The notes: a model not told the origin generated them from the letters alone. A DNA stretch of 64,000 nt from Nanobdellota archaeon (GCA_038046005.1 JBBSXB010000005.1:19732-83731), one strand, 5' to 3'; counted from the first letter of the stretch, positions 25,224 through 46,816 are shown. Numbers and translations are program-made.

Positions 25224-25273
25224 GGTTTTAAATCAGTAACTTTTAAAAGGGGATTTCTGCATTATATTTTCAT

Positions 25274-25386
25274 GCTCGCATGGTCTAGCGGTTATGACTC
25301 ATCCCTGTCGTGACATCTTCTTTATGAAAAAGAAAGGGGAAAATCACAGAACGGATGCGATCCGGGTTCGACTCCCGGTGCGGGCG
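25274..25386 (+). tRNA. tRNA-Asp(GTC) with a 41-nt canonical 37/38 intron (25311-25351)
   Basis: Acceptor GCTCGCA/TGCGGGC; anticodon stem CATCC/GGATG with GTC at 25307-25309; T arm CCGGG-TTCGACT-CCCGG; BHB helix CTGT/ACAG with CGT and AAC bulges. Confidence 0.95.
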
Positions 25387-25480
25387 TAATACATATTAGA
25401 CCAATTTGGTGAGACTCTTTTCCTAACGGATATATTGTATCTCGACTGTCCATATAAAATCCCGAGATCAAGGAAAAGAT

Positions 25481-26632
25481 ATGAAAATCGATCCATATAA
25501 GCACAAGGAAAGATACCTTAATTGGAAAGAATCAGTAAAACAGGGAATTCCGAGCATAAGCAAAGAAAACTCGGAAATTATACTGCAATATCTAAAAGAT
25601 ATGGAAATTGGAGTTAATATTTCTTCAGTTAGTGTGAAAGGCTCAAGAGGATATAATAGACTAAACACTTTAAAGGACAAACTTATATTCTTCTCCAAAA
25701 AGTTTAACACAAGCTTTAATTTGGGCTGTATAATGGAGATTAAAGAGGAACAGTTATTTCAATTCTTTTCAGAGATGGATAAAGGAATCATAAAAAGACA
25801 AGATGGAAATAACTTTATGGGAGTGCACACTTATGTTAAGATATTCAAAGCGTTTTGGCATTGGTATCAGAAAATCGCCAGAAAGCAGGGAATTGAGGTA
25901 AAAGATATTACTTTAGATTTAGATACTAAAGCAAATAAGCCAAAATGGGTTTATCTTACAGAAAAACAAGTTAAACAGCTTTATGATAGGGCAGGAAGTA
26001 GATACAAAGTCCTAATAATGTTCTTATTTGACACAGGAATAAGAGCGCCAACAGAGTTGATTAATATTAGAGTTAGCGATTTATTCAATAATTGCACTGA
26101 GTTGCAAATAAGAGATGAAATAAGTAAAACATTTGGAAGAAGAATTAAATTAATGCTTTGCTCAAACATTCTTAAAGACTATATTCAAGAAAATAATCTT
26201 AAACCAGAAGATCAGTTATTTGCAATAAACCCAACTGTAGTAAACAGATATCTCAAAAATTTAGCAGTGAAGATTTTTGGCAAAGGCATGAGTGATGCAG
26301 GTGAATTATATTCTAGATTATCAATGTATGATTTCAGGCATTGTTCATGTTGTTATTGGCTTCCAAGATATAAATCTGAAAGTGCCTTGAAATATAGATT
26401 TGGATGGAAAAAATCAGATAAAATACATTATTATTCAGAATTATTAGGAATGAAGGACAAAATTTCTGAAGAAGACCTTTTGATTGATATAACTAAAACA
26501 GAAATTGAGAAAAGACTGACAAAAGCTGAAAGAGAAGTTGAATTTTTAACTGAAGATAATCAGCACATGAAAAATCAGATGAAGGAAATTCTAAAATTAA
26601 TCTCCAATGCTAGAGAAATTGTAGCTAATTAA
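25481..26632 (+). CDS. Tyrosine recombinase/integrase 1
   Basis: DTGIRAPTEL (R), SKT (K), YDFRH, FGW, IHYY (Y); C-terminal coiled coil. Confidence 0.92.
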   Translation: MKIDPYKHKERYLNWKESVKQGIPSISKENSEIILQYLKDMEIGVNISSVSVKGSRGYNRLNTLKDKLIFFSKKFNTSFNLGCIMEIKEEQLFQFFSEMDKGIIKRQDGNNFMGVHTYVKIFKAFWHWYQKIARKQGIEVKDITLDLDTKANKPKWVYLTEKQVKQLYDRAGSRYKVLIMFLFDTGIRAPTELINIRVSDLFNNCTELQIRDEISKTFGRRIKLMLCSNILKDYIQENNLKPEDQLFAINPTVVNRYLKNLAVKIFGKGMSDAGELYSRLSMYDFRHCSCCYWLPRYKSESALKYRFGWKKSDKIHYYSELLGMKDKISEEDLLIDITKTEIEKRLTKAEREVEFLTEDNQHMKNQMKEILKLISNAREIVAN

Positions 26633-26636
26633 AAAC

Positions 26637-26871
26637 AGCCACTCGGCATAATAGGACTCTTTTTGGTTGGTGGCTCTTTTTGAAGTGATTATTATACAAG
26701 AAACATTCAAATTAATGGTGACTCTCTAGACCTTAGATTTTTGAAAACCTATTTTTATTAAATCCGACGACAAAATATGAAGAGTCACTCGGCATAATAG
26801 AACTCTTTCTTGGCAGTGACTCTTTTTTGAGATAATTCCTTTATGATAAACACTCAAACTAATTGTGGCTT
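26637..26871. repeat. Two ~89-bp imperfect direct repeats (26637-26725, 26783-26871), each starting with a hairpin plus T-tract
   Basis: AGYCACTCGGCATAATAGRACTCTTT...GTGRCTCTTTTT...AAACAYTCAAAYTAAT in both copies. Confidence 0.85.
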
Positions 26872-26898
26872 TTAACTCCTAAAAAAAGGCCAAAGTGC

Positions 26899-27003
26899 GC
26901 ACCCCCAATTTTGAGTGCTACAAAATAGATTCTCGTCGGCAAAATTACATAAAAATCATCAAGAGTCAGTCGACTTAATATGTATGAATGGGGGTGGTGA
27001 CTC
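26899..27003. repeat. Non-coding block homologous to 50679-50783
   Basis: Colinear GCACCCCC, TCGTCGG, identical TCGACTTAATATGTATG and GGGGTGGTG. Confidence 0.85.
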
Positions 27004-27075
27004 GCTTAAAAAACGCCACCCCCTATAATGGAACTCTTTCTTTACATGAGTTGATTTTTTTATTATAAGATCTTC

Positions 27076-29685
27076 TTACTTAATTCCAAACAAATTCTTA
27101 ACAAAACTAGTAATTACAGAACTAATTGTCTTTTTTTGAGTTGTCGTAGTTGTTTGTACTGAAGTTTTAGTAGTTGTTGTAATAGCTGCTTTTGGTTGAG
27201 TTGTAGTAGTCTTAGGAGTAGTGGTTGTAGTGATTGTTTTTGGAGGTGTTGTGGTAGTTGATGTTCCAACTTTCATCGTTACTTTTGTGTTCTTGTAGCT
27301 TGCTCCTTCTTCAAGTGTAAATTTAAGTGCAGAAGTATCAAAGCCATTTGTTCCTGGCCCTACTCTTAAATTTACTATTGGACCTTTTCCAGTCGGAATA
27401 ACTGCAGATCCGTCTAACTTATATATTCCAATTATATCTTTATTGAAAGTCACACTGAGTAAGCTTGTTCTTGGTGTTGAAGTAACTCCCAATACTTTCA
27501 TCTTAGTTGTATCATATGAAATTTTGAGTCTTACTCCTGAAAGATCATCAGTATTGTCAAGATTTATTGGAACTAACTTTTCAGTATTTGTTCCTGTTGC
27601 AGTCCCGAATGAAACTGTTGAAGTTGAATATCCTGAATAAGTTCTATTATTGCAACTTAGAGGGGTGAATGAAATGTAAAGATAATCTATCATCCTCGAC
27701 AAGTCAGAAATATCAATACCTCCATCAGGTGATCCATCAACATTTCCAACAGACATTGGTGCCTTAAATGGTGTAAATGAAATAAACATGTAATCTATCA
27801 TTGCACTAAGGTCAGCGATGTCTACATTGCCACTCATGTCAAGATTGCCACATATTGTATTTGTTTTGGTTTTACAAGCACCATCCTGACAAAAAAATCC
27901 AAGAGGTTTAATAGTAGAGCAATCGGAAACTCTTGTTCCAACAGATCCATTGTTATTACAGACATACTCATAAACCCAACCCTCATATGTTCCATCTTAC
28001 ACACAATAATCAGTATATGAAACACCCTGATAAGTTACAATTCCCTTCATATTATAGTTATAACCTCCATCACTGTCAGTGCAAGTTGGTTGTTTCGTGA
28101 CTTCAATCAAAGCTCCTGAATCATTCATGTCAAGAACAGATATTGACATGTTGTTGAAACTGTCAAAGTATGTTTCGTTTTTGAATATGAGCGGCCAAGG
28201 AGATTGAAAATGCTCCGAAAAACTAGAATGTGTATTAATAAGAAATGTCCCAATATTTTCAAAATTGTTAATCTCATTCTGCCCTAATCTTATTAATAAT
28301 CCATGTTTAAATCTCTCTTCAGTGGGGGGTCGGTCCAGTAAATTTTTATTACTATAATTATTATAACCCCTATATTCAACATAATAATTTGACAAAAGGT
28401 TTAAGTTGTAGTCACCGCTATGAACTGGAGTTAGATTCATAATAGAGATATTATAATTTATGGGTATTTTAATTCCATGGATTTCTGAGGGATTTATTAA
28501 TTTTTTTTCTAAAGGAGTGATAAAAAATATTCCTTCCTCAACTTCTGCTATATTATTATCATTCCAACCCAAAATCTTTTTGCTAAAAACACCATAATCA
28601 CCATAAAAACTAGAAAATCCCATAACATCAAAAAAATCCCCATATTCATAATAAGTATGATATTTTTCAATCACCAAAATTTCCTTTGCGTGCATAAGAC
28701 CAAAATTATGTCCAAATTCGTGAACGAGAGTATTAAAACTATTGGGATATTCATTATCATAATAGTGTTGCCAGTAGTGATTAATCCATAAAGAATAGAT
28801 ATTAACTATTCCCTCATTTGTTAAATAAAAATTTTTTCCAATAGCGGCCATTCCAGAATACCATTTAAAGCAATCATTAGTTGATGAGTAAACAATAATT
28901 CCATCGTATTTACTAAAGTTTGTATCTTGGTCTGATTTATTTATTGCGATATTAACGTAGTCTGAATAATCACAATTTGAGAAGTTATCATAGATGTAAG
29001 AACCTCCAAAATCTACATGTATGTTTGCTTTCCCATAAGAAGCATCCTTTATCCAATTATTTACTAATCCGAAAGTTATGTTGGTAAAATTTTCTGCATC
29101 AAAATTATTTTTATCTGCTTCATTTAATAAATAAACAACAACATATTTCTGCTCACCCAATGTTTTTGGCCAAGGTTCAACATTCGCGGAAGCAACAGAA
29201 TAACTTGTTCCTCTTAAGTTTGAGTTTGTATCAGAAAAACTTATTTTATTATCTTTTAAATAACCAGTTACTTTTATTTTGGATTTTACAGGTAAGTGTT
29301 TATCTGTACTTAGCTCGTATCTTTTTCCATTATCATTTAGATAATAAACTTCTTTGCTTAATTGAGGTTCCTTAAAATTATCAATAATCATTAATTCAAC
29401 AACTCCTTCTTTTGTTACTAACTCTCCTAAAGAATTCTGCGTCTGTGGATTAACCCTTGTCGTTGTAGTTGGTGTCGTCGGAACAGTCGCTTTGGCCGTA
29501 GCCTGTGTCGAAGGACTAGGTGTTTGGAAATTAGAAGTTTTTGCTCCAATTATATCATCGGCAAACTTCTTCACAATATTTCCAGTAGAATTATAATTGA
29601 AACCCAAAAGAACCAACTCCAACACAATAATTAATGATAAAACTAGAATTAATGTTTTGTTAAACTTCAAACCTCTTTTCTTCAT
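27076..29685 (-). pseudogene. Secreted metzincin (M11/M6-like) protease-Cys-rich-dockerin-cohesin-like-Thr-rich protein interrupted by one in-frame TAA (27997-27999)
   Basis: HEFGHNFGLMH, DVMG Met-turn, CTDSDGG; ORFs 27997-29685 and 27076-27837 are in the same frame and the 53 codons between them are open. Confidence 0.8.
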
Positions 29686-29744
29686 TTAATCATAAAGCAA
29701 AAGTAGTTTAAAATAATTTGGGTTGGTAGAAAGTTTATTACCCA

Positions 29745-29795
29745 ATCCATAAATTTCATCTCGACAAGATTTATAAAGTCGAGAGATCAACACAA
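29745..29795. repeat. Palindromic repeat P (other copies at ~25439, 30901 partial, 31974, 33910, 35150)
   Basis: CATCTCGAC-AAKATTTAWAAA-GTCSRGAGATC-(G)CACACAA. Confidence 0.88.
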
Positions 29796-29945
29796 ATTGT
29801 AAAAAATCAAGGGCAAAAAAGAGTCCCATGATTTTGGTCCAATGTATCTCCGATTCGGTGCGGGCGTAGACTCCTTTTGGAATAATTAAGTGATGTACTT
29901 TTTCTAAATGCAAAAATCTATATATTTCAAGGGATAGACTTTTGT

Positions 29946-30647
29946 ATGGAAAATACTATCTGGGTAAATCTTAAGAGAGAGCTTAAAGAAGATTTTAAAT
30001 TAAGAGAGACTAAACTTCTTTGTTTTGCGACTTTCTTGGTAGTGATTCCTTGGATTCTTTCTAGCTTGTTATTTTTTGTTTCAGAAAAGGGAATATACTG
30101 GGTCAGAATTATTACTTTGGCCATATTTATAATCACTGACATCTTTTACGTTTTAAGAAAAAAGAGAAGAGATAATTTTTTTACTTCTTGGGGAGACTGG
30201 TTGACTATTCTTATTTTAGTAGCAATGTTAGTATTATACCTTGTACTAAGCTTTAAGTCTCTGGAATTTAAAATATTATCTTTATTGGCTTTTGTCTTTG
30301 TTGTGCTTGCAGTATTAGTCATAAATGGCTTTGTCCTTTTAGTAAAAAGCGAAAGATCGTTTTGGATAATTCTTCCGTATATTGCCCTCGTTAGTGCAAC
30401 AATAGTTTTTTTCGGATTTACATTTACTTTTAGCCAAATTAATTATTCTAATGGGACTTTAGTCAAAAATGCATGGGATTATATTTACTTTAGCTCGTCT
30501 ACTTTTTATGCTTCTACATATGGAGACATAATCCCAACTGGAGCGTTGAGTAAATTTTTAACCCAGATAGAAATATTTTTTAGTTTTATTATACATATTT
30601 TCTTAGTTGGTTATATCCTTTCAAAACCTAGGAAAAGTGAAAAATAA
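29946..30647 (+). CDS. Membrane protein with potassium-channel-like pore domain
   Basis: Multiple TMs; WDYIYFS..TFYASTYGDIIP (degenerate TxGYGD). Confidence 0.78.
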   Translation: MENTIWVNLKRELKEDFKLRETKLLCFATFLVVIPWILSSLLFFVSEKGIYWVRIITLAIFIITDIFYVLRKKRRDNFFTSWGDWLTILILVAMLVLYLVLSFKSLEFKILSLLAFVFVVLAVLVINGFVLLVKSERSFWIILPYIALVSATIVFFGFTFTFSQINYSNGTLVKNAWDYIYFSSSTFYASTYGDIIPTGALSKFLTQIEIFFSFIIHIFLVGYILSKPRKSEK

Positions 30648-30648
30648 A

Positions 30649-30876
30649 ATGAAGAAAATACTACTCTCCATTGAAAACGCATTGGCATTCCTTTTATCAG
30701 GTCTACTTTTACAAGTTAATATTTATTTGGGAATATTGTTTTTAATCGCTGGTTTTTTAGGAACATATTATTTAACTAAAAGTACTCCAGAAATAATATC
30801 TGGACCAGAAGGATCTTCTCCTCCAGACCCTAAAAGAGTTCCAGAAGGAAGCATCTTTGTACAGTATAAGAAATAG
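30649..30876 (+). CDS. Small two-TM membrane protein
   Basis: ATG directly after the upstream stop; hydrophobic. Confidence 0.6.
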   Translation: MKKILLSIENALAFLLSGLLLQVNIYLGILFLIAGFLGTYYLTKSTPEIISGPEGSSPPDPKRVPEGSIFVQYKK

Positions 30877-30937
30877 GTTACACAATCGTGATGCATAATC
30901 CTTAAAAAGTCCAGAGATCGCACACAACCACAACAAA

Positions 30938-31879
30938 TTATTTTTCTTTCAAATCTTTTTCTAATTGGCGGTATTCTTTTATGTAGAGATCAATTGTTGG
31001 CTTGATATTATGGTTTTTTTCATATTCCTGCAGAGATTGATAATACTCTACATTATTTTTGAGATTTATATTTAATGGCGGAAGATTATGTTTGATTAAA
31101 ATGTTATTTAAGAGTATCCTTCCAACCCTTCCATTTCCATCAGCAAATGGGTGGATGTTTTCAAATTGATTATGCACCACAGCGGCCAATATGAATGCGG
31201 GATATTTTGTTTTATTTTTTTCATACCATCTTATTAACTCGCTTAACAGATAGTTTATTCTTGCTTGTGGAGCTCCTTCATGGACTACTCTTCCAGATTG
31301 ATCCGTAACAACAACTTCTTCGCCCTTTTTTCTAAGCTGTCCAGCAAAGTGTTTTGAATTCTTGAAGACAATTTTATGAATATCTTTTATTAATTCTATT
31401 GAGATATGCTCTTTGGTCTTTCTGATAAATCTAATAGCTTCGTCAACTCCATATGCTTCTGCAATATCTTCTTTAGATTTGTCTGGCCATTTGTCATGTT
31501 CCAAAATGTTAGACACCTCATTTTGGTTTAATTTACTTCCTTCAATAGCGTTTGTATTATATGAGAACAACTTAGAAAACTTTTTCCAATCTCCTTCTGA
31601 TAAGTGAGAAATTTTTAAGGGTATATCAGACTCAATTCTCTTGATTGAGTTTATTTCTTCCTTGGACAGTTCAATCTTTAATGGGTCTTGGATTATTTTG
31701 TATTTGTGTATCTCCTCCAGAATAAGTTTTTCAGCAATTGAAACTCTTTCTTTTAATTTTCCTTCGCTTAAGTCAGTTCCGAGATATTTCCTGAATTTAT
31801 GGACTCTTGGGCCCTCGCGATAAGAATGAGCAAGATAGTACTTTATCTTACTCCCTGCTTTTCTTTTTTCAATGTTCAT
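30938..31879 (-). CDS. Fic-domain protein
   Basis: HPFADGNGRVGR, TNAIEG; start at MNIEKR. Confidence 0.95.
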   Translation of the reverse strand: MNIEKRKAGSKIKYYLAHSYREGPRVHKFRKYLGTDLSEGKLKERVSIAEKLILEEIHKYKIIQDPLKIELSKEEINSIKRIESDIPLKISHLSEGDWKKFSKLFSYNTNAIEGSKLNQNEVSNILEHDKWPDKSKEDIAEAYGVDEAIRFIRKTKEHISIELIKDIHKIVFKNSKHFAGQLRKKGEEVVVTDQSGRVVHEGAPQARINYLLSELIRWYEKNKTKYPAFILAAVVHNQFENIHPFADGNGRVGRILLNNILIKHNLPPLNINLKNNVEYYQSLQEYEKNHNIKPTIDLYIKEYRQLEKDLKEK

Positions 31880-32236
31880 AAATGTACATAGGTGACTACA
31901 ATATTTAAACATTTCTATTTAGGTGTCTACAAATAACAAAAAATGTAGTCACCCACTGTTATCCATATAGCCTCATCTCGACAATATTTAAAAAGTCCGG
32001 AGATCGCAACACAATCGTATCGAATAGTTTAGGCCGATAATAATCAAAAGAAAAAGACCATCCACCGAATCAACCAAGAGGGTGAGGTCTACGGTGCGGG
32101 CGTAGACTCCTTTTGGAATAATTAAGTGATGTACTTTTTCTAGATTCGAGTGAGCCGATATATTTAAAAATGTAAGATATGATAAATGCTAAAGAGTGTG
32201 TTTAGGCGCTCGGATCAAATTCTGAGATAATTTGAA

Positions 32237-32800
32237 ATGGTAGAAGAACAACAAATTTTGACGGAAGATAGAACTAATACCTCATCTATTGAAGTCCTAG
32301 TAGGATACAATGGTCTTTATAATTTTCAAACATGTGGAGATGACCCAAGAACTCTTAGTGAAGTGCTTTCTACAACTGGGTGGGGTAAAAGCGACTTTTA
32401 TCAAGCAGGACAGATGGTTGCTGACAGAATGTATAAACTTAATGTTGTAAATCCTGTTATTAATAATGGTCAGACTTATGAAATAGTATATGACATTCCA
32501 GAAGCGGAAGCTGATGCTTTAATCAGAATGCGTGCAGATGACCCTTTCTTTAGTGGAGAGAGACCAGCACATCACTTCGAAAAAGTAAATTGTAGAGCAC
32601 TATTACCTGAGCAATTAGAAGTGTTTAGAAATGGACTTGAATATCAACTTCAGGTTTTGCAAGGTAAGGTTTCAGAAGCACCTAAAAAAGAAAATCAGAG
32701 AGATTCCCTCACCCTCTATCTTAAAACTGCGAACTATGGGAGACAAGAGATAGCCAGGATAAGAAAAAGTTTTGGAAGGGCAGACAATTCCTGTCCATAA
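32237..32800 (+). CDS. Hypothetical protein
   Basis: 187-aa ORF. Confidence 0.7.
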   Translation: MVEEQQILTEDRTNTSSIEVLVGYNGLYNFQTCGDDPRTLSEVLSTTGWGKSDFYQAGQMVADRMYKLNVVNPVINNGQTYEIVYDIPEAEADALIRMRADDPFFSGERPAHHFEKVNCRALLPEQLEVFRNGLEYQLQVLQGKVSEAPKKENQRDSLTLYLKTANYGRQEIARIRKSFGRADNSCP

Positions 32801-32889
32801 CCAAGAAATAATTCTAACTAATTTATTGTATTTTATCTTATATACAGATAGATTTATATCCATGTTCTACTTAAAGTAATTAAGCTAAA

Positions 32890-33045
32890 ATGGAAGAAAT
32901 GCCTGTTATCTGTATCAAGTGTGATAAGATGTTTAATTTTCTGGAAGAACTGAGAGGTAATGCTGACATGAATAAAGCCGTTGGAGATATCCTATTTGAA
33001 AAATATGGCTCAACAGATATAATCTGTAAAGAGTGTAGAAATTAA
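32890..33045 (+). CDS. Small Zn-finger-like protein (51 aa, below the ORF-track cutoff)
   Basis: MEEMPVICIKCDK...IICKECRN, two CxxC motifs. Confidence 0.65.
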   Translation: MEEMPVICIKCDKMFNFLEELRGNADMNKAVGDILFEKYGSTDIICKECRN

Positions 33046-33046
33046 T

Positions 33047-33829
33047 TTATTTTTTAGTCATAACATATATTTTCTTTACAATATTAAACTGAATATCCTC
33101 TCCTGAATCTTTATATTTCATTTCTTTCTTTAACTTCTCTGGAAAGACTTTTCTAATGAAATCATTGAGCTTATTTAATCTTTTAATATCTCCCTTCAAT
33201 TCTTGATGCAGTCTCTTATTAGAAGAAAATCTATATGTTATCTTGCGATATTCCTTTATATGAGAAAAACCGCCTTTTTTCATGGCATCAATAAATTCAT
33301 CTTCCCTAAAGAAATATCTTTCTCTTGTTAATATATTGAAGCCAGCTAATTCATCTTTCTTTCTTAACACATCTTGAAACAATTTCTGATTCTTTTTAGA
33401 TAACATTATATCCCAAACAATAAACTTCCCATTTTTCTTTAAAACTCTATTTACTTCTTTCGCTACTTCATATTGAATCTTTTTAGAAACTTCATGAATT
33501 CCCATCTTTATAACAATCTTATCAAAAAATTCTTGGGTAAACCCCGTTTTCGGAAATTTTGTCGATATAAATCTATTTTTTGGAATCTCTGTAATATTTT
33601 TTATGGCTCTTTTTAATTGAACCTCACTTTCGTCTTCAAAATATAAATTTGCTTTCTTCTCTTTTGCAAGAATCGTTTTTCCAACAGCACCATATCCACA
33701 AAAAGCGTCTAGAATATTTTCGTTAGGTTTAGGGTTTACGGCTTTAACAAGAGCTTTAAAATCACTTGGATTTATACTATGAATATATTCATAGGAAACA
33801 ATTCTAACATCAAAACCTTCTTTTTTCAT
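33047..33829 (-). CDS. Class I SAM-dependent methyltransferase
   Basis: ILDAFCGYG, FDKIV, RVLKKNG. Confidence 0.85.
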   Translation of the reverse strand: MKKEGFDVRIVSYEYIHSINPSDFKALVKAVNPKPNENILDAFCGYGAVGKTILAKEKKANLYFEDESEVQLKRAIKNITEIPKNRFISTKFPKTGFTQEFFDKIVIKMGIHEVSKKIQYEVAKEVNRVLKKNGKFIVWDIMLSKKNQKLFQDVLRKKDELAGFNILTRERYFFREDEFIDAMKKGGFSHIKEYRKITYRFSSNKRLHQELKGDIKRLNKLNDFIRKVFPEKLKKEMKYKDSGEDIQFNIVKKIYVMTKK

Positions 33830-33970
33830 GAATATTTATTATTTTATAGATTTATATATTATTTTATTTCGTAAAAACAAAAAATAACTCTCTCTTAATC
33901 CATGCATTCCATCTCGACAAGATTTAAAAAGTCCAGAGATCGCACACAATCGTAAGTAAATCAATTAAGG

Positions 33971-34927
33971 TTAGTATTTCTGTAAAACCTTTAAGATATA
34001 ATCATAAGATTTATCTGCCTGCTCCAGCATGAATTGATAATAACCTTTTGATCTTCTATTAATTGCCTGCTCAAGAGTATTAAAGTAAGCTAGTTTATTT
34101 TCCTTATACACCACCATAGGGTAATACCCTGCGCTCATTAAAATTTTGTTCATAATTAATCTGCCTGTTCTTCCATTGCCATCTCTGAATGGATGTATAT
34201 TTTCATACATTTTATGAAATTCAAATGCTAAAACTAGGGGGTGAATTTTGTTTTTGTTAGTTCTATGCCAATTTAGTAAATCATTTAGTTCTTCTTCCAC
34301 TTTTTCAGGGGGTGTTGTCTGCGAGTTTCCAACAATAACCTCTTCTTTTTTAAAACCCTTAGGATAGGGAATGTTTCCGATCATCAACAAATCTTTAGTA
34401 AGTATATGATATAGCCTTTTTATTGATATTAAATTAAATTTAAATGATTTTTGTAGATATTCAAATGCTAAAATTGAATTTTTTACTTCTTTTACTTCAT
34501 TCCTGTCTTTATATTTTGTGTCTCCAGTATCGATAATTTCCCTCACTCTTTCAGGAGGTATTTTTGATCCTTCGATGTTATTAGAATTAAAAATAAACTC
34601 TTCAGCAAATTCTGTATCTACGTTTTTCTCGCATTTTTTTCCCTCTAGGAGATTGCTGATTTTTATAGATTTTAATTCTATTTTTTCAGGGAGATTTTCA
34701 TTATAAGACAACTCTTTCTTAATCTGATGTAGAAATTTGGATTTGAACTTTAGCTCTTCTTCAGATAAGGTCTCTAAATTATCCAGTATGTATTTTTCTT
34801 TGCTAAATGTCAAAGAATCTGTGCCTATGTATTTCTTAAGAACTAACAATTGATTCATAAATGAGATTTTTTTGACAAAATAAATGCTAGTTTTTCCATT
34901 GATATTCTTCTTTTCTATATAACTCAT
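33971..34927 (-). CDS. Fic-domain protein
   Basis: HPFRDGNGRTGR, SNNIEG. Confidence 0.95.
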   Translation of the reverse strand: MSYIEKKNINGKTSIYFVKKISFMNQLLVLKKYIGTDSLTFSKEKYILDNLETLSEEELKFKSKFLHQIKKELSYNENLPEKIELKSIKISNLLEGKKCEKNVDTEFAEEFIFNSNNIEGSKIPPERVREIIDTGDTKYKDRNEVKEVKNSILAFEYLQKSFKFNLISIKRLYHILTKDLLMIGNIPYPKGFKKEEVIVGNSQTTPPEKVEEELNDLLNWHRTNKNKIHPLVLAFEFHKMYENIHPFRDGNGRTGRLIMNKILMSAGYYPMVVYKENKLAYFNTLEQAINRRSKGYYQFMLEQADKSYDYILKVLQKY

Positions 34928-35370
34928 AACTTATGCACTCCTTTATCCTTTATAAACCTTACCATTTGGGCAGTATAAAAATATTATATTTCCCCTATAT
35001 AATTAAAAATAGTACTATTTTGGCAGTAAAAAAGTTAAATTTATGCACCATTTTGGCAGTATAATTTTGCTATCTTCCCCTATGGTTTTATAAATGTTTA
35101 TATGAGTTTTTTTAGAACCATAGATGCTTTTATATAAAATTATTCCTTCCTCTCGACAATATTTAAAAATCCCAGAGATCGTACACAACTATATCGGACG
35201 GTTTTAGGCCGATAATAATCAAAAGAAAAAGACCATCCACCGAATCAACCAAGATGGTAAGGTCTACGGTGCGGGCGTTCACGTATTTTGTGAGCCTGAT
35301 GTGATGGACTTTTTCTTAACGGATGATTTTCATCCGATCCCTATATAAAAAACAAGGGCTTAGAAAAAAT

Positions 35371-36537
35371 ATGAAAATAGATCCATACAAACACAAAGAA
35401 AGATACCTTAAATGGAGGGAATCTGTAAAAGAGGGCATTTCAAGGATAAATTCTTACAATTCTGATTTAATTTTAAAATACCTTGATGATATGGAAAACG
35501 GGATGAATGTTGCTAAAGGAAATGTTAAGGGTTCTAGGAGCTATATTCGACTTAATACGCTAAGAGAGAAAATGAGGTTTTTCTCTTTAAGATTCAAGGA
35601 AAGGTATAATCTTGATAAAATAACTGATGTTTCTGAAGAACAGTTATGCGTCTTTTTTTCTGAAATGAAAAGAGGGGTTATTAAAAGAAAAGACGGGAAG
35701 TCATATATTGCTATAGCGTATTCTGTCAAGTGCTTCAAGGCTTTTTGGCATTGGTATCAGAAAATAAGCAAAAAGAGTGGAAAGGAAATTTTAGATATTA
35801 CTTCAGATCTTGATACGAGAGAGGACAAGCCTAAATGGGTTTATTTGACTGAAGAGCAGGTTAAGAAATTATGTGAAAATGCAAAGTTCAATTATCGGGT
35901 TTTAATCACTTTTCTTTTTGATACTGGAATCAGGGCTCCAACAGAGCTGATGAACATAAAAGTTTCTGATCTTTACAATGACTGCAAAGAGCTAAACATT
36001 AGAGAGGAAATCAGCAAAACATTTGGCAGAAGAATAAAACTTATGCTTTGTTCAAATTTCCTTAAAAGTTATATTGAACAAAACGAATTAAAAAAAGAAG
36101 ATTATCTTTTTCAGATAAAGCCTTATGTTGTTAATCAATATCTTAAGAGATTATCAAAAAATCTCTTTGGAGATAAGGAAAGCCCAGCAGGGCAGAGATA
36201 TTCTCAATTAACAATGTATGACTTCAGGCATATCTCTTGTTGCTATTGGCTTCCAAGATACAAATCAGAGTCTGCGTTAAAATTTAGATTTGGCTGGAAA
36301 AAATCTGATAAAATTCATTATTATTCCGAAATGCTTGGAATGAGGGATACAATTTCTGATGAAGATCTTTTAGTGGACATAACAAAGACAGAAATTGAAA
36401 AGAAGCTGTTAAAATCTGAGAATGAAAAGGAAATACTAAATGAACGAGTTCAGCATCTTGAGAAGCAGATGAATGAGATTTTGAGATTAACAAATAAGGT
36501 GGAAGAATTCAGAGTTATAAGATTAAGCGATGACTAA
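35371..36537 (+). CDS. Tyrosine recombinase/integrase 2
   Basis: Paralog of 25481-26632 (MKIDPYKHKERYL, DTGIRAPTEL, YDFRH, FGWKKSDKIHYY); start set by homology. Confidence 0.92.
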   Translation: MKIDPYKHKERYLKWRESVKEGISRINSYNSDLILKYLDDMENGMNVAKGNVKGSRSYIRLNTLREKMRFFSLRFKERYNLDKITDVSEEQLCVFFSEMKRGVIKRKDGKSYIAIAYSVKCFKAFWHWYQKISKKSGKEILDITSDLDTREDKPKWVYLTEEQVKKLCENAKFNYRVLITFLFDTGIRAPTELMNIKVSDLYNDCKELNIREEISKTFGRRIKLMLCSNFLKSYIEQNELKKEDYLFQIKPYVVNQYLKRLSKNLFGDKESPAGQRYSQLTMYDFRHISCCYWLPRYKSESALKFRFGWKKSDKIHYYSEMLGMRDTISDEDLLVDITKTEIEKKLLKSENEKEILNERVQHLEKQMNEILRLTNKVEEFRVIRLSDD

Positions 36538-36658
36538 CTACTTCTTTTTCTTTTTAGCTTTTTTCTTAGCCATGATGTACAAAAGAAATTAATGTTTAAA
36601 AGAGTTTTGGATTTTAGTAAACCCAAAAGATTTTATATTAACTTTTCCTTTTAAATAA

Positions 36659-39406
36659 ATGAAATTAAGTGAAGCAGAAACAAGGAAAAAGTTAATTGAT
36701 CCAGTTTTAGATAGAGTTGGCTGGAAAATTAATGGGGGTTATGTTAAAGAAGAGATTAACCCCGTTAAATCTAAATTTCAACTTAAAGAATATATTGGTC
36801 GTGAAGCTGGAATAGAAAGAAATGTGGATCGATTTATAGATTATTTACTCTTAGATGAAGATAGAAGCCCTCTAGCAATAATTGAATCCAAGAAAACATC
36901 AGTTGATGTAGAAAAAGGAGAAATTCAGGCAAGAACTTATAGGGATGATGTTGAAAAACAAATTGGAGTAAAAATACCCATTTTTCTTACAAATGGAAAA
37001 ACTTGGTATTATGTTGATAATTTAGACAGAAGAAGACAAATATTACTTCCATTTAATCAAAAAGATCTTCACAGAATTGTTAGTTTGATGAAAAAAAAGA
37101 AAGATCCTGCAAATGTAAAGATTAATACAAAAATAGTGGATAGAAAAAGAGGAATAGAAGCTGTGAAGATCGTCTTGGAACATTTTTCAAAAGGATATAG
37201 AGAGGCATTAATTAATATGGCGACAGGAACAGGAAAAACAAGAGTTGCCATGGCAATAATTGAAGGATTAATAAAAGCAGAATATGTGCAGAAAATATTA
37301 TTTGTTGTTGATAGAATTTCTTTAGGAAATCAAGCTAAAGAAGAAGGGTTCAAAAAATTCTTTCCAGATAGCCCAATTTGTGAATTAAACGAAGAAGGAT
37401 ATTCAGATACAGCAAGATTTTATGTTTCAACTGTTCAAACACTTATGTCTTCACAAAAACCTAGAGGTAAGTTTTACGAAAAATTTGGTTCTGGAGCATT
37501 TGATTTAATTATTTTTGATGAAGCCCATAGATCTTATTATGATAGAAATAATGACATATTCAAATATTTTGATGCCTTGAAAATAGGGTTAACTGCAACT
37601 CCTTCTTCAGAAGATTCAAAAGACACTTTTGAATTATTTAATTGTGAAAAGGGGAAACCAACTGTCAAGTATGATTATTGGGACGCAGTAAATGATAAAG
37701 TTCTTGTTCCTTATGTTGCTGATATTATCGAAACCAAAGTTTTATCTCTAGGGATAGAAGGGAAAAAATTAAGTAAAGAGTTACAACAGGCATTAAAATT
37801 ACAAGAAGAAGAACCAGAAAAGTTTCAAACTCCCGGCTCTAAATTTGAAAGGCATTTTACAGATGAGAAAACTAATGAATTAATAATCAGAGAGTTTGTG
37901 GATAGATGTTATAAATCAGATGATAATAGACCTTGCAAAAGTATTTTTTTCTGTGCAAGTGTTAAACATGCAGAAGCATTAGAAATATTATTTCAAAAAT
38001 TATATCCTCTTTTAGCAAAAGATGTTAAGGTTATTACCTCAGATAAATCCCGTTACACAGATGAGGTTAAGAGATTTATAAAAAGAGACAGTCCAAGAAT
38101 TGCTTTATCTGTAGGAGTATTAGACACAGGAATAGATGTCCCAGAGATAATGAACTTAGTTTTTGTTAAGCCAGTCATATCTTCAATTAGATTTTGGCAG
38201 ATGTTGGGGAGAGGAACTAGAAGTATTTCTGCTTGTGAAAATAAACAATGGCTTCCAACAAATAAGGATGGACAACATATAAAAGAAGATTTTCTAATCT
38301 TGGACTTTAAATTTGGAGATTGGTCAAATGTTCTTCAACATAAGCTAAATGTTTCAAAGCAAAGATCATCAGGAACAGACGCAAAAACAAGAATTTTCTT
38401 GGAGCAGGTAGATACTTTAGAAAAAAACCTAAATGAGAAAGAAAAGAAAATTGTAGAAAAACAAATAAGAGACACAATTAAAGAGATTGACATTGATTCT
38501 CCTTTAGTCATGGAGAAAAGAGAAATTATTAAGAAAATTGTCTCTTCTAAGTTTGATTTGAAGGAACATGTGAAAGAATTGAGAGAAGAAATTGCCCCTC
38601 TTTTGATTTATTCTTCATCAGAAAATGCGAAAGTATACGGATTTATTTCTAGATGTATTAAGTTATTTGACCACATTAAAACAAATAACAAAGAAAAAAT
38701 TGCTAAGATAGAAGATTTTGTTGTTAAAAGAGCTGAAGCTATTTGGGACAAAAACTTAGATACAATAAAAGAAAAAAGAGATGATCTTATAAAAATCCAG
38801 AAAGAACCTTTTTGGGAAGAGATTACATTTGAAGATGTTGATTTTTTAGTTAGAGATATTGCTCCTTTAATGATTTTTTATGAAGAGGAAAGAAAAAATA
38901 TGCTGAAGATTAATGCTCCAGACATGGTTATGAAAGTAGATAAAGAAATTATGGAAATAAAAGAAGATAAAGACTTTAAGAAATTCATTGAAAATAATAT
39001 TTTAATGAAAAGGATAAAAGATGGAGAAGGAGTTAATTCTAAAGAGCTTTTAGAGATAGAAAGTAAGCTTAAACAGCTTAATCCTGCCCTTACGATAGAT
39101 AATATTCAGCAAAGCAAAGATTTTGTGTTATTTTTAAGGGAGCTAATTGAAGTAAAAGGATTGCCTGACCCTCAAGAAATGATTAGGTGGGAATTTGATA
39201 AGTTTGTTAAAGACAGAAATGAACATTATAACTCAGAACAACTTAAATTCTTAAGACTTTTAGAGCAAGTTTTTATAAGGGCTAAACATATAGAATTAAA
39301 GAATTTCGCAGAACATCCTCTTGCAGATGCTCGTCCACTTGATATTTTCACAAAAGAACAACTCGAATTAATTGTTCAAAAATGCAACAAATTGAAATGG
39401 AAATAA
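36659..39406 (+). CDS. hsdR: Type I restriction endonuclease subunit R
   Basis: EAETR..LID..L...GW, DYLL..AIIESK nuclease, MATGTGKT, DEAH, LTAT, QMLGRGTR. Confidence 0.93.
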   Translation: MKLSEAETRKKLIDPVLDRVGWKINGGYVKEEINPVKSKFQLKEYIGREAGIERNVDRFIDYLLLDEDRSPLAIIESKKTSVDVEKGEIQARTYRDDVEKQIGVKIPIFLTNGKTWYYVDNLDRRRQILLPFNQKDLHRIVSLMKKKKDPANVKINTKIVDRKRGIEAVKIVLEHFSKGYREALINMATGTGKTRVAMAIIEGLIKAEYVQKILFVVDRISLGNQAKEEGFKKFFPDSPICELNEEGYSDTARFYVSTVQTLMSSQKPRGKFYEKFGSGAFDLIIFDEAHRSYYDRNNDIFKYFDALKIGLTATPSSEDSKDTFELFNCEKGKPTVKYDYWDAVNDKVLVPYVADIIETKVLSLGIEGKKLSKELQQALKLQEEEPEKFQTPGSKFERHFTDEKTNELIIREFVDRCYKSDDNRPCKSIFFCASVKHAEALEILFQKLYPLLAKDVKVITSDKSRYTDEVKRFIKRDSPRIALSVGVLDTGIDVPEIMNLVFVKPVISSIRFWQMLGRGTRSISACENKQWLPTNKDGQHIKEDFLILDFKFGDWSNVLQHKLNVSKQRSSGTDAKTRIFLEQVDTLEKNLNEKEKKIVEKQIRDTIKEIDIDSPLVMEKREIIKKIVSSKFDLKEHVKELREEIAPLLIYSSSENAKVYGFISRCIKLFDHIKTNNKEKIAKIEDFVVKRAEAIWDKNLDTIKEKRDDLIKIQKEPFWEEITFEDVDFLVRDIAPLMIFYEEERKNMLKINAPDMVMKVDKEIMEIKEDKDFKKFIENNILMKRIKDGEGVNSKELLEIESKLKQLNPALTIDNIQQSKDFVLFLRELIEVKGLPDPQEMIRWEFDKFVKDRNEHYNSEQLKFLRLLEQVFIRAKHIELKNFAEHPLADARPLDIFTKEQLELIVQKCNKLKWK

Positions 39407-39720
39407 AAAAATTACTGTCAAAATATTCAAGAGAAGATATAGGCTTTGGAAAAACTGAGAATTATATTCTGGAGAGGATAAATGCAACTAAAGAAGATGT
39501 AGCAACTGATTTGCTTTCTCTCGAAAATTTAGAATTGGTGGAAGAGCAGAAAAGAAATAATGAAATAAGATATGTGTTATTTTTCGTTTATTCAAAAAAG
39601 AGCGGAAGGGTTTATGTAATAACTTTAAGAGAAAAATTGAGGATAATCACAGCTTATCCGCTTGGCAAGAAAACACTCTCTAAATACAATAAAAGAAGAT
39701 TTATAAATTCCAAGAGGTAG
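39397..39720 (+). CDS. Putative toxin (DUF4258/BrnT-like RNase fold)
   Basis: Basic ~107-aa protein, LRIITAYP, directly upstream of a DUF2283-like gene. Confidence 0.55.
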   Translation: MEIKKLLSKYSREDIGFGKTENYILERINATKEDVATDLLSLENLELVEEQKRNNEIRYVLFFVYSKKSGRVYVITLREKLRIITAYPLGKKTLSKYNKRRFINSKR

Positions 39721-39728
39721 TAAGTATT

Positions 39729-40082
39729 ATGTATAAATTTCATTATGATGAGGAGAATGATATCTTGTCTATATACGATTCTCCTAGAAAAGTAAAGGAA
39801 AGCTTAGAAGTGTCTGAAAACATAGTTATAGATTTGGATAAAAATGACAGAATTAACGGTATAGAGATAATGGATGCAGGCGAGTTTTTCGGCTCTTTTA
39901 ATCCAGAGATAGACAAGGATCTTTTATCGGAGCTTGACTCTGCAAAGATTGAATACAAGAGCTTTAGGAGTCAATGGATGCTTTTAGTTGTTTTAAGTGC
40001 TAAGGGCAGACAGTTTTCCCAGCCAATGCCTCCTCTGAGAAAAACAGAGTTTTCAAGCCCCATATTAGCTAATAATTGGTAA
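39729..40082 (+). CDS. DUF2283-like protein (putative antitoxin)
   Basis: YDEENDILSI...IVIDLDKNDRINGIEI. Confidence 0.8.
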   Translation: MYKFHYDEENDILSIYDSPRKVKESLEVSENIVIDLDKNDRINGIEIMDAGEFFGSFNPEIDKDLLSELDSAKIEYKSFRSQWMLLVVLSAKGRQFSQPMPPLRKTEFSSPILANNW

Positions 40083-40101
40083 AAAGGTGTATACACCTTT
40101 T
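40082..40101. promoter_or_regulatory. Perfect 20-bp palindrome next to a TATA box
   Basis: AAAAGGTGTATACACCTTTT followed by GAAAGATTTAAATA. Confidence 0.7.
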
Positions 40102-40138
40102 AGGAAAGATTTAAATAGTTCTTGATTTTATTTTTCTC

Positions 40139-42863: not shown

Positions 42864-42864
42864 A

Positions 42865-43872: not shown

Positions 43873-43920
43873 AATGAACACAAAAAAGAAATAAATAAAC
43901 TGGAAGTAAAACCAATAAAC

Positions 43921-46365: not shown

Positions 46366-46387
46366 ATAGCTCCATCGCACACAAATC

Positions 46388-46815: not shown

Positions 46816-46816
46816 A

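What the first reader, a model, noticed from the sequence alone, without database searches (positions are those of the whole stretch)
25376..35278. Tandem array of att-bounded elements at tRNA-Asp, including integrase-less cargo mini-islands
Seen: the tRNA 3' 12-mer CGGTGCGGGCGT recurs at 25376, 29856, 32092 and 35267, defining units of 4480, 2236 and 3175 bp plus a large fourth unit. E2 and E3 lack a recombinase but share a 51-bp identical left end (29856-29906, 32092-32142) and a 76-bp right end with 2 mismatches (32028-32103, 35203-35278) around unrelated cargo (channel + Fic; orphan + methyltransferase + Fic). They are sandwiched between two integrase-bearing elements. Known: tandem accretion at tRNA sites occurs in bacteria. 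Inference: a family of non-autonomous cassettes moved in trans, forming an integron-like gene-capture array in a DPANN archaeon. I am not aware of a description of this, but could not search.
Basis: partly seen in the sequence, partly recalled or inferred. Interest (0 to 1): 0.9.

Follow-up and report, generated by a model that had tools for sequence, protein, structure and literature searches.

The report
Stacked mobile elements at archaeal tRNA-Asp
Five mobile DNA elements have piled up one after another behind a tRNA gene of a tiny groundwater archaeon, and two of them have no recombinase of their own yet keep complete docking sites matching those of their large neighbour, a pattern well known in bacteria but little described in such archaea.

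Summary
The tRNA-derived 12-mer occurs 4 times in the window (0 of 100 shuffles reach that), and the spacings, the 51-nt identity and the 76-nt/2-mismatch identity are as stated.

The array is larger than reported. The contig joins contig C11 through a 55-nt overlap. This gives a 30.4-kb conjugative-like E4, a fifth core and a fifth unit with a third integrase. A same-genus genome has 3.3 kb where this genome has about 44.5 kb.

E2 and E3 have no integrase or integrase remnant. Each keeps a complete two-armed att site. A 14-nt box occurs only 6 times in the 874,611-bp genome, all of them inverted pairs around the cores of E2, E3 and E4.

Integrase-less, core-bounded mini-units carrying Fic or toxin-antitoxin genes also occur at another tRNA here and in three other genera.

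My best reading is site-specific tandem accretion with CIME-like non-autonomous units of the E4/Int2 specificity group. The bacterial precedent is well described (PMC5704250). An integron-like capture platform is not supported.

The parts
25273..25387 (+). tRNA-Asp(GTC) gene with a 41-nt intron (about 25311-25351). Its last 12 nt are the att core.
   Evidence: ARAGORN -i finds a gene here but mislabels it. The intron-less orthologue in same-genus G001 is called Asp(gtc), and its exons are 98-100% identical. I also parsed the sequence by hand.
25376..25387 (+). Core copy 1 (junction J1: tRNA | E1)
25388..29855 (+). E1, a 4.5-kb integrase-bearing unit. Int1 is at 25481-26632; a dockerin-like 253-aa gene is at 27076-27837 (-); an M12-like metallopeptidase is at 27997-29685 (-). 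It has its own pair of inverted arm boxes (AAAAGAGTC[CT]CA) at 25410-25421 (-) and 29817-29828 (+).
   Evidence: Pfam. The box occurs 3 times in the whole genome. The right arm versus the reverse complement of the left arm scores 16; 0 of 500 shuffles reach that.
29856..29867 (+). Core copy 2 (J2: E1 | E2)
29868..32091 (+). E2, an integrase-less unit. Left arm 29868-29906, with an Int2-type box at 29892-29905 (-). Ion_trans_2 protein 29946-30647. 89-aa ORF 30607-30876. Half copy of the promoter-like motif 30897-30928. Fic1 30938-31912 (-). Full motif 31961-32005. Right arm 32028-32091, with a box at 32049-32062 (+).
32092..32103 (+). Core copy 3 (J3: E2 | E3). With its arms (about 32046-32146) it forms an attP-like imperfect palindrome of about 95 nt. 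I read the core-type site as GGTCTACG | GTGCGGG | CGTAGACT.
   Evidence: DNA fold -18 kcal/mol, z -4.4, 0 of 200 shuffles fold as well.
32104..35266 (+). E3, an integrase-less unit. Left arm 32104-32142 (box 32128-32141, -). 187-aa orphan 32237-32800. 51-aa ORF 32890-33045. Class I methyltransferase 33047-33829 (-). Internal partial right arm ('scar': the motif plus 13 nt) 33897-33953. Fic2 33971-34927 (-). Three 34-nt repeats 34961-35080. Motif 35136-35180. Right arm 35203-35266 (box 35224-35237, +).
35267..35278 (+). Core copy 4 (J4: E3 | E4)
   Evidence: The junction folds as a palindrome, z -5.0.
35279..64000 (+). E4 (left 28.7 kb; it continues for 1,663 bp on contig C11, and the whole unit is 30,397 bp). 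Left arm box 35303-35316 (-). Int2 35371-36537. Type I R-M genes HsdR 36659-39406, HsdS 41772-42863 and HsdM 43921-45375. N6/N4 methylase 45372-46013 (-). Two T4SS pilin-like genes 46498-46815 and 46817-47629. VirB4/TraG-like ATPase 47631-50672.
   Evidence: Pfam. 55-nt end overlap between C5 and C11. Right arm plus fifth core at C11:31113-31280, minus strand. Synteny with G001.

Best explanation
This is a site-specific tandem accretion at the 3' end of tRNA-Asp(GTC). At least five units lie one after another, each beginning after a copy of the 12-nt tRNA end. They are E1 (4.5 kb, Int1), E2 (2.2 kb), E3 (3.2 kb), E4 (30.4 kb, Int2, type I R-M, T4SS-like genes) and E5 (about 4.2 kb, Int3, MazE/PIN pair, no detectable right core).

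The elements belong to one family of divergent tyrosine-recombinase integrative elements. I infer that their attP is an imperfect palindrome of about 95 bp. It consists of a distal box, a core-proximal half-site, a 7-bp overlap (GTGCGGG) inside the tRNA-derived core, and the mirror image on the other side.

E2 and E3 are non-autonomous members of the E4/Int2 specificity group. They have lost, or never had, an integrase, but they keep both arms complete.

Inferred, not shown: Int2 can recombine any pair of these sites. E2 and E3 could then be excised or integrated in trans, or leave together with E4 as a composite (cis-mobilisation), as described for bacterial CIMEs with their ICEs.

Their Fic genes, like the toxin-antitoxin pairs in comparable mini-units of related genomes, probably help such small units persist. 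This is also inference.
For: Shown:
1. Four exact cores in the window and a fifth on C11.
2. C5 and C11 join by an exact 55-nt overlap, like two other contig pairs of the assembly. Same-genus G001 has serS, tRNA-Asp, 3.3 kb of unrelated DNA, and then synteny with C11 from 26892 downwards. The roughly 44.5 kb here is therefore an insertion.
3. The box AGAAAAAG[AT][CA]CATC occurs 6 times in 874,611 bp. All six are at the right arms (+, 43 nt before the core) and left arms (-, ending 38 nt after the core) of E2, E3 and E4. E1 has a different box pair.
4. The last 45 nt of the right arms match 45/45 between E3 and E4, and 43/45 between E2 and E4. The left arms of E2 and E3 match 39/40.
5. In all four units the right arm aligned to the reverse complement of the left arm scores 12-16, against a shuffle mean of 6-7; 0-2 of 500 shuffles reach the observed score. 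Junctions of one specificity group fold as long palindromes (J3 z -4.4, J4 z -5.0). The hybrid J2 does not (z +0.78) and neither does the tRNA junction J1 (z -0.58).
6. The E2/E3 left arm is homologous to the left arms of integrase-bearing elements (E1, E4, G021). The homology runs exactly to the end of the inverted repeat, about 39 nt; there the integrase promoter starts in the others.
7. An 11-protein alignment keeps the candidate catalytic R, YD[FL]RH, GW and I.YY invariant.
8. The pattern recurs:
   - G000 tRNA-Glu array, with a truncated integrase and a Fic-only unit.
   - G020: a 5.4-kb integrase-bearing unit followed by a 1,267-bp MNT/HEPN unit with a homologous right arm.
   - G021: a 16.7-kb integrase-bearing unit followed by a 3,080-bp ParE unit.
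   - G015: a 1,273-bp Fic-only unit between perfect cores.
   - G021 tRNA-Asp: two integrase-bearing units in tandem.
9. The CIME/accretion model is described in PMC5704250 (passages read).
Against:
- The E2/E3 arms were not found anywhere outside this genome.
- The box patterns were derived from the very sites they then count.
- The left arms of E2/E3 and E4 share only 26 of 40 nt, so recognition by Int2 is a guess.
- In the tRNA-Glu array of the same genome, comparable units are visibly decaying. The cores carry 1-2 mismatches, one integrase is cut to 49 aa with a stop, and one left arm is truncated inside the promoter motif. Decay in place is therefore a real process here.
- J4 and J5 share a 59-nt exact repeat, longer than the inferred k of 55. 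Whether E4 is integrated or circular therefore rests on read threading that I could not check.
Confidence: 0.6

Rival explanations
1. E2 and E3 are inert fossils. On this reading they are remnants of once integrase-bearing elements that decayed in place and can no longer move. They persist because their Fic genes (or toxin-antitoxin genes in relatives) make loss costly.
For: - Decay of sister units is visible at tRNA-Glu and tRNA-Gly in the same genome. There are integrase fragments of 49-80 aa, core mismatches, and a left arm cut inside the motif.
- Mini-units in four genomes all carry Fic or TA-type genes.
- E2 and E3 each contain an internal partial copy of the right-arm motif (30897-30928; 33897-33953, 93% over 46 nt). 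These look like scars of fused older units.
- Integrase loss after integration is reported for archaeal elements (PMC8371274, passage read).
Against: - All cores of the Asp array are perfect 12/12.
- Both arms of both units are complete, and the right arms are nearly identical to those of the intact E4.
- Homology to integrase-bearing left arms stops exactly at the inverted-repeat boundary in both units, not at a random breakpoint.
- There is no integrase remnant at all.
- The arms are 97-100% identical while the Fic proteins are only 30% identical. Slow decay in place does not explain that contrast.
Confidence: 0.25
2. A dedicated integron-like capture platform. On this reading the cassettes are a distinct class of mobile units, captured one by one and expressed from the array, with the flanking integrases acting as platform enzymes.
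For: - Units with one to a few genes between conserved recombination sites.
- The junction sites are imperfect palindromes of about 95 nt. From recall, this resembles attC sites in being foldable.
- Each right arm carries a TATA-containing palindromic motif pointing into the next unit, whose first gene is always on the + strand.
- TA-type cargo. From recall, this is also typical of chromosomal superintegrons.
Against: - The integrases are far below the integron-integrase model cut-off (20.9 vs 265 bits).
- The sites are the ordinary att sites of the autonomous elements themselves, built on a tRNA 3' end.
- Integrase-bearing elements sit inside the array as ordinary units, not as a fixed platform.
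- E2 and E3 have TATA-like boxes of their own right after the left arm (read).
- No second genome shows the same ends with other cargo.
Confidence: 0.08
3. Assembly artefact: strain variants carrying different single elements at tRNA-Asp were collapsed into one artificial tandem array.
For: - This is a metagenome-assembled genome in 15 contigs, and one contig break lies inside E4.
- J4 and J5 share a 59-nt exact repeat, longer than the inferred k-mer of 55.
- All six runs holding 99% or more of the words may be source samples, so they are not independent support.
Against: - The longest exact repeats involving the E2/E3 junctions are 51 nt (J2/J3) and 52 nt (J3/J4), below the 55-nt overlap seen at three contig joins. 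Each of these junctions must therefore exist as real 55-mers in reads. This is an inference about the assembler.
- The outer boundaries are confirmed by synteny with G001.
- Similar arrays are assembled independently in G020 and G021.
Confidence: 0.04

Closest known systems
CIMEs (cis-mobilizable elements) accreted with ICEs/IMEs at tRNA genes, e.g. ICESt1/ICESt3-related elements of Streptococcus thermophilus (described in PMC5704250, passages read; its primary references Pavlovic 2004 and Bellanger 2011 were seen only as citations)
   Same: - The units are flanked by attL and attR and have no integration or transfer genes.
- They lie in tandem with an integrase-bearing, conjugative-like element that uses the same target gene end.
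- The array grows by site-specific accretion.
- The predicted mobility is through the neighbour's integrase.
   Different: - The host is an archaeon with a 0.87-Mb genome, and the integrase family is divergent (Pfam Phage_integrase only).
- E2 and E3 show no trace of the lost genes, and their homology to autonomous elements ends exactly at the att inverted repeat. Origin by deletion is therefore not demonstrated.
- Mobilisation has not been tested.
Tandem integration of archaeal integrated elements at one site, and archaeal integrated elements that lost their integrase (PMC6563490 and PMC8371274, passages read)
   Same: - Tyrosine-recombinase elements re-use the same tRNA site and form arrays.
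- Some integrated elements lack an integrase.
- R-M and other accessory cargo is carried.
   Different: The passages I read describe tandem whole elements and attribute missing integrases to gene loss. They do not describe small integrase-less units with complete two-armed att sites matching a neighbour's. DPANN is not mentioned in the recombinase review ('dpann' 0 occurrences).
Integrons and chromosomal superintegrons (features recalled; the NCBIfam model TIGR02249 was tested)
   Same: - Arrays of small units separated by imperfect-palindrome recombination sites.
- Toxin-antitoxin-type cargo.
- A possible read-through promoter ahead of each unit.
   Different: There is no IntI-type integrase and no attI/attC distinction. 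The sites are tRNA-derived att sites shared with autonomous elements, and the units seem to carry their own promoters.
ssrA-specific genomic islands of Dehalococcoides (PMC3146451; search listing and abstract only)
   Same: Site-specific islands accumulate at one small-RNA gene of a small-genome groundwater organism.
   Different: Those are bacterial and target tmRNA. I did not read beyond the abstract, so I cannot say whether integrase-less units occur there.

Membership tests
tRNA-targeting tyrosine-recombinase integrative element (E1, E4) | Encodes a tyrosine recombinase | tested here: met
   Int1 matches Pfam Phage_integrase at 35.7 bits (cut-off 27.1). Int2 is 66% identical to Int1. Candidate catalytic residues are invariant in 11 family members (the motif assignment is recalled).
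tRNA-targeting tyrosine-recombinase integrative element (E1, E4) | Bounded by a direct repeat of the tRNA 3' end, with the tRNA gene kept whole | tested here: met
   Five exact 12-nt cores. The tRNA is intact compared with G001.
tRNA-targeting tyrosine-recombinase integrative element (E1, E4) | Site unoccupied in a close relative | tested here: met
   G001 (same genus) has 3.3 kb instead of about 44.5 kb between tRNA-Asp and the shared flank, and no integrase hit. G001's 3.3 kb is itself unexplained.
CIME (cis-mobilizable element) (E2, E3) | Retains attL and attR | tested here: met
   Perfect cores plus both inverted arm boxes on each unit.
CIME (cis-mobilizable element) (E2, E3) | Lacks integration and transfer genes | tested here: met
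   Pfam on all ORFs of 60 aa or more. tblastn with Int1 and Int2 gives a best E of 0.2.
CIME (cis-mobilizable element) (E2, E3) | Derived from an ICE/IME by deletion | tested here: inconclusive
   The left arm is homologous to integrase-bearing left arms, but only up to the repeat boundary, and no remnant is present. Deletion derivatives are evident in the tRNA-Glu array.
CIME (cis-mobilizable element) (E2, E3) | Excises or transfers together with an accreted ICE | not testable with these tools
Integron | IntI-type integrase | tested here: not met
   TIGR02249 scores 20.9 and 19.9 bits against a cut-off of 265.
Integron | attI next to intI, plus distinct attC sites on promoterless cassettes | tested here: not met
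   All junctions use one tRNA-derived core, with arms shared with the autonomous elements. That the units carry their own TATA-like boxes is my reading of the sequence, not a measurement.
Integrative conjugative element (E4) | Type IV secretion/conjugation genes | tested here: met
   Two T4SS_pilin/TrbC matches, and a 1013-aa protein with PrgI, TraG P-loop and AAA_10 domains.
Integrative conjugative element (E4) | Relaxase / coupling protein | tested here: inconclusive
   No Pfam match among the 20 E4 ORFs scanned. Several large ORFs (703, 1527 and 685 aa) have no family; the 1527-aa ORF was not scanned.

The most novel reading that the evidence does not exclude
E2, E3 and the Fic/TA-only units at other tRNAs and in other genera may be a true satellite class of archaeal mobile elements. 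They would be gene cassettes whose only mobility equipment is a palindromic att site of about 95 bp, moved in trans by the integrase of a co-resident conjugative element. Movement might be as folded single-stranded DNA after T4SS transfer. Each right arm would carry an outward promoter that drives the first gene of whatever lies downstream. DPANN tRNA genes would then act as open gene-capture arrays, analogous in function to integrons.
Probability: 0.15. Interest if true: 0.8.

Novelty: new member of a known kind. Interest (0 to 1): 0.45.

Why it matters
Mobile elements of ultra-small archaea are barely characterised. This locus shows that about 5% of a 0.87-Mb genome (44.5 kb) can be one stack of integrative elements behind a single tRNA. 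The stack includes a conjugative-like element with T4SS pilins and a type I restriction system.

The locus also gives a concrete, testable att-site anatomy: box, half-site, 7-bp overlap, half-site, box. It assigns two integrase-less units to one candidate integrase (Int2).

If these units are mobilised, this is the archaeal counterpart of bacterial CIME/ICE accretion. It would be a route by which Fic and toxin-antitoxin genes spread among DPANN lineages. If they are not mobilised, it is a clean example of addiction genes surviving element decay.

Tried and rejected
Read evidence. The look-up of sequencing runs found 9 runs. No junction, circle or empty-site evidence could therefore be obtained. 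The runs with shares of 0.24, 0.14 and 0.06 were never laid and say nothing.

Ends elsewhere.
- A 31-mer pattern (right arm plus core) gave 0 hits in metagenome contigs.
- An 18-mer gave 47 loci there and a 19-mer gave 17 loci in genome contigs. All lie in DNA of 48-76% G+C, with no match longer than 29 nt to the junctions, so they are chance matches.
- The right-arm 24-mer and the left-arm 28-mer gave 0 hits in viral contigs, and Int2 has no relative there.
- The 232-nt junction query in 40 relatives matched only the promoter-like motif, plus one 50-nt left-arm match at 76% in G021.
- The 114-nt J3 gave 0 matches in 400 other genomes of the order (355 of them in the same family). Only 2 candidates per genome were scored.

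Other dead ends.
- An SSU rRNA search of the genome found nothing, so there is no rRNA-based placement.
- Int2 has no sequence relative among solved structures (best E 0.52).
- The right end of E5 was not found. There is no core with 3 or fewer mismatches in the expected region other than a chance-looking one, and a 2-mismatch core at C11:9202 lies inside an ORF.
- I first thought this was the only tRNA-Asp gene. ARAGORN calls a second intron-bearing 'Asp' at C11:14383-14529 when given the piece alone, but not in the whole-genome run. I left this open.

Rejected ideas.
- E2 and E3 as a tandem duplication of one unit: their cargo differs and the Fic proteins are only 30% identical.
- E2/E3 as deleted copies of E4: the left arms share only 26/40 nt.

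Supplements of the papers were not opened. Supplementary tables of PMC6563490 may list integrase-less or tandem units that I could not see.

Full report
OBSERVATION

The 12-mer CGGTGCGGGCGT occurs four times in the window, at 25376, 29856, 32092 and 35267, all on the + strand. The chance expectation is 0.01, and none of 100 shuffles reaches four. The unit lengths of 4480, 2236 and 3175 bp follow from those positions.

Default ARAGORN and Rfam at gathering thresholds see no RNA gene in the window, but the first copy does end a tRNA gene. ARAGORN with introns allowed finds a gene at window 25273-25387, mislabelled Ser. The same-genus genome G001 carries an intron-less orthologue whose two halves are 98% and 100% identical to the window's exons, and ARAGORN calls it tRNA-Asp(GTC). 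The window gene is therefore tRNA-Asp(GTC) with a 41-nt intron at the canonical position.

The 51-nt identity of the E2 and E3 left ends and the 76-nt/2-mismatch identity of their right ends are confirmed.

E2 carries an Ion_trans_2 protein, an 89-aa ORF and a Fic protein. E3 carries a 187-aa orphan, a 51-aa ORF, a class I methyltransferase and a Fic protein. Neither unit holds an integrase or a remnant of one; the tblastn best E is 0.2. Integrases of 383 and 388 aa, 66% identical, follow cores 1 and 4.

The cargo is not entirely unrelated. Both units end with a minus-strand Fic gene next to the right arm. The two Fic proteins are 30% identical over 293 aa.

THE ARRAY IS BIGGER THAN THE WINDOW

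The window ends at the end of contig C5. The right end of C5 overlaps the right end of C11 by exactly 55 nt. Two other contig pairs overlap by the same length, which suggests a de Bruijn k of 55.

Read in that orientation, C11 continues E4 for 1,663 bp. It then shows a right arm that matches E3's right arm 45/45 in its last 45 nt, a fifth exact core, and a third integrase, 33% identical to Int1.

E4 is thus a 30,397-bp unit. It carries Int2, a type I R-M system, a further DNA methylase, two T4SS pilin-like proteins and a 1013-aa PrgI/TraG-P-loop (VirB4-like) ATPase. That makes it ICE-like, although I found no relaxase. E5 is about 4.2 kb and carries Int3, a MazE-like/PIN pair and a pirin. It has no detectable right core.

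The outer limits are confirmed independently. In G001, serS (87% nt identity) and tRNA-Asp are followed by 3.3 kb of unrelated DNA, and then by sequence syntenic with C11 from 26892 downwards. This genome therefore has about 44.5 kb where its congener has 3.3 kb. G001 has no integrase of this family.

The host is archaeal: aIF-2 scores above its cut-off. Its genome is 0.87 Mb at 98% completeness. That is consistent with DPANN, but no tool named it.

ANATOMY OF THE SITES

In each of E1-E4 the right arm and the reverse complement of the left arm are imperfect inverted repeats. Local alignment scores are 12-16 against a shuffle mean of 6-7, and 0-2 of 500 shuffles reach the observed score.

A 14-nt box, AGAAAAAG[AT][CA]CATC, occurs only six times in the whole 874,611-bp genome.
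- Three copies are on the + strand, starting 43 nt before the cores that close E2, E3 and E4.
- Three copies are on the - strand, ending 38 nt after the cores that open E2, E3 and E4.

E1 has a different box, AAAAGAGTC[CT]CA. It occurs three times in the genome: in E1's two arms, and in the right arm of a unit in the tRNA-Glu array. The patterns were derived from these very sites. What they add is that the boxes are absent elsewhere and that position and orientation are fixed.

Next to the core, J3 reads GGTCTACG | GTGCGGG | CGTAGACT. I take this as two inverted half-sites around a 7-bp overlap region, by analogy with tyrosine-recombinase core sites (recalled knowledge).

As single strands, J3 and J4 fold into imperfect hairpins of about 95 nt. 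J3 gives -18 kcal/mol (z -4.4) and J4 gives -20.2 kcal/mol (z -5.0); 0 of 200 shuffles fold as well. The hybrid junction J2 (E1 arm plus E2 arm) does not fold this way (z +0.78), and neither does the tRNA junction J1 (z -0.58).

The left arms of E1, E4 and an integrase-bearing element at tRNA-Asp of G021 are homologous to the E2/E3 left arm. The homology runs up to ...ACTTTTTCT(T)A, about 39 nt after the core. That point is the end of the inverted repeat. Beyond it the autonomous elements continue with a palindrome, a TATA-like box and the integrase start codon. E2 and E3 continue instead with a different TATA-like box and a cargo gene.

E2 and E3 therefore keep exactly the att site and nothing of the integrase module. 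They belong to the E4/Int2 site group, not the E1/Int1 group.

An alignment of 11 integrases of the family keeps the candidate catalytic R, YD[FL]RH, GW and I.YY invariant. The family matches only the general Pfam model. It scores far below the XerA and integron-integrase cut-offs and has no sequence relative among solved structures.

A SECOND REPEATED ELEMENT

A palindromic, TATA-containing motif (..ATCTCGACAAnATTTAAAAAGTCCAGAGATCGCACACAA..) occurs 12 times in the genome with recognisable context. All copies lie inside tRNA-linked arrays, on C4, C5, C8 and C11, and all are in the tRNA's orientation.

It sits 65-90 nt before the core in every right arm, so it points into the next unit. The first gene of that next unit is always on the + strand.
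- In E1 and in the first tRNA-Glu unit it also lies between the core and the integrase.
- In the tRNA-Gly island it precedes successive + strand ORFs.

I read it as an element-specific promoter/operator. That is inference, and no RNA data were examined.

A half copy inside E2 (30897-30928) and a copy with 13 further nt of right arm inside E3 (33897-33953, 93% over 46 nt) look like scars of older junctions. E2 and E3 may each be two fused units.

THE PATTERN RECURS

In the same genome:
- tRNA-Glu(UUC) on C8 is followed by cores at 87916, 91526, 92877 and 94033, with 1-2 differences among them.
- The first unit there keeps a 49-aa integrase fragment with a stop.
- The second unit repeats the first unit's left arm (93% over 112 nt) but breaks off inside the motif. 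It holds only a Fic gene (36% identical to Fic2), followed by a right arm 90% identical to E1's.
- tRNA-Gly on C4 is followed by an 80-aa integrase fragment and a 7.4-kb island closed by a core with one mismatch.

In relatives, I examined 13 contig stretches around integrase hits. Five have kb-scale repeats of the tRNA end.
- Two of these have an integrase-bearing unit followed by an integrase-less mini-unit.
  - G020 at tRNA-Glu: 5,413 bp followed by 1,267 bp. The small unit has a nucleotidyltransferase plus a weak HEPN match and a homologous right arm.
  - G021: 16,652 bp followed by 3,080 bp. The small unit has ParE plus DUF2683, and all cores are perfect.
- One (G021 at tRNA-Asp) has two integrase-bearing units in tandem.

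Of 11 Fic loci fetched from relatives, three lie beside a tRNA gene. One of these, in G015, is a 1,273-bp unit holding only Fic between two perfect 12-nt cores at tRNA-Glu(CUC), in a genome with no hit to this integrase family.

HOW IT MOST LIKELY WORKS

Shown: repeated site-specific integration into the same tRNA end has stacked related elements. Two units lack a recombinase but have complete sites of the E4 type.

Inferred:
- Int2 binds the box pairs and half-sites and exchanges strands in GTGCGGG.
- Any two sites in direct order can therefore be recombined, releasing E2, E3, E2+E3 or E2+E3+E4 as circles.
- E4's T4SS-like genes could carry a composite to another cell.

This is the accretion/cis-mobilisation scheme defined for bacterial CIMEs (PMC5704250, passages read). 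Tandem integration and integrase loss are on record for archaea (PMC6563490 and PMC8371274, passages read).

How E2 and E3 arose is open. The clean boundary at the inverted repeat, the perfect cores, and arms 97-100% identical around cargo that is unrelated or 30% identical all argue against slow decay in place. They argue for a shared, recently active att module whose cargo was exchanged, perhaps by accretion followed by loss of inner junctions. The obvious decay in the tRNA-Glu array, and the uniformly Fic/TA-type cargo, argue that retention of addiction genes also shapes what survives.

WHAT IS NOT SUPPORTED

An integron-like platform is not supported.
- There is no IntI-type enzyme.
- There is no attI/attC distinction.
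- The sites are those of the autonomous elements.

The ends were not found with other cargo outside this genome.

LIMITS

No read-level evidence could be obtained. The E2/E3 junction order rests on exact repeats of 51 and 52 nt being shorter than the inferred k of 55. The 59-nt repeat shared by J4 and J5 is longer than that, so whether E4 is integrated or partly circular in the population is unverified.

My literature searches turned up no description of such units in DPANN archaea. These are six keyword searches of an open-access library, not proof of absence.

VERDICT

I file it as a new (archaeal, DPANN-like) member of a known kind: tandem accretion with CIME-like units. There is a modest chance that the mini-units are a true satellite/cassette class.

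Noticed in passing
window 25311-25351: The tRNA-Asp(GTC) gene has a 41-nt intron that is absent from the orthologous gene of same-genus genome G001, although the exons are 98-100% identical. This points to recent intron gain or loss.
   Followed up: partly
G000 contig C8:87855-94045 (locus L001): A second array lies at tRNA-Glu(UUC). It has four core copies with 1-2 differences, a 49-aa integrase fragment with a stop, and a Fic-only unit whose right arm is 90% identical to E1's right arm although the core is that of a different tRNA.
   Followed up: partly
G000 contig C4:1284-8767 (locus L002): tRNA-Gly(GCC) is followed by an 80-aa integrase fragment and a 7.4-kb island closed by a 1-mismatch core. 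Three to four copies of the promoter-like motif lie about 1.1 kb apart, each ahead of + strand ORFs.
   Followed up: partly
window 46498-50672: E4 carries two PF18895/TrbC-type T4SS pilin genes and a 1013-aa PrgI + TraG-P-loop ATPase next to a type I R-M system. This makes it an ICE-like element in a very small archaeal genome. No relaxase was recognised.
   Followed up: partly
window 26627-27058: Four copies of a 55-nt repeat with an internal inverted repeat (AGCCAC...GTGGCT, followed by T-runs) lie between Int1 and the dockerin-like gene. Their function is unknown.
   Followed up: no
window 34961-35080: Three 34-nt direct repeats (ACCATTTGGGCAGTATAA...) lie upstream of the Fic2 start codon. 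They may be regulator binding sites.
   Followed up: no
window 29744-29788, 31961-32005, 33897-33941, 35136-35180 and 8 further copies on C4, C8, C11: A palindromic TATA-containing motif is restricted to the tRNA-linked arrays and always lies in the tRNA's orientation. Similar motifs match in G018, G020 and G021.
   Followed up: partly
locus L143 (G015:C2), local 1110-2394: A 1,273-bp single-gene (Fic) unit lies between two perfect 12-nt copies of the tRNA-Glu(CUC) end, in a genome with no hit to this integrase family.
   Followed up: partly
window 35203-35279 and C11:31112-31170: J4 and J5 share a 59-nt exact repeat, longer than the 55-nt overlaps at contig ends. There is also a contig break inside E4 with no obvious repeat. 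Both hint at population heterogeneity around E4.
   Followed up: no
G000 contig C11:14383-14529: ARAGORN calls a second intron-bearing tRNA 'Asp(gtc)' when given this piece alone, but not in the whole-genome run. It is 95% identical to a similar call in G001. ARAGORN's isotype labels for intron-bearing tRNAs in this genome are unreliable.
   Followed up: no
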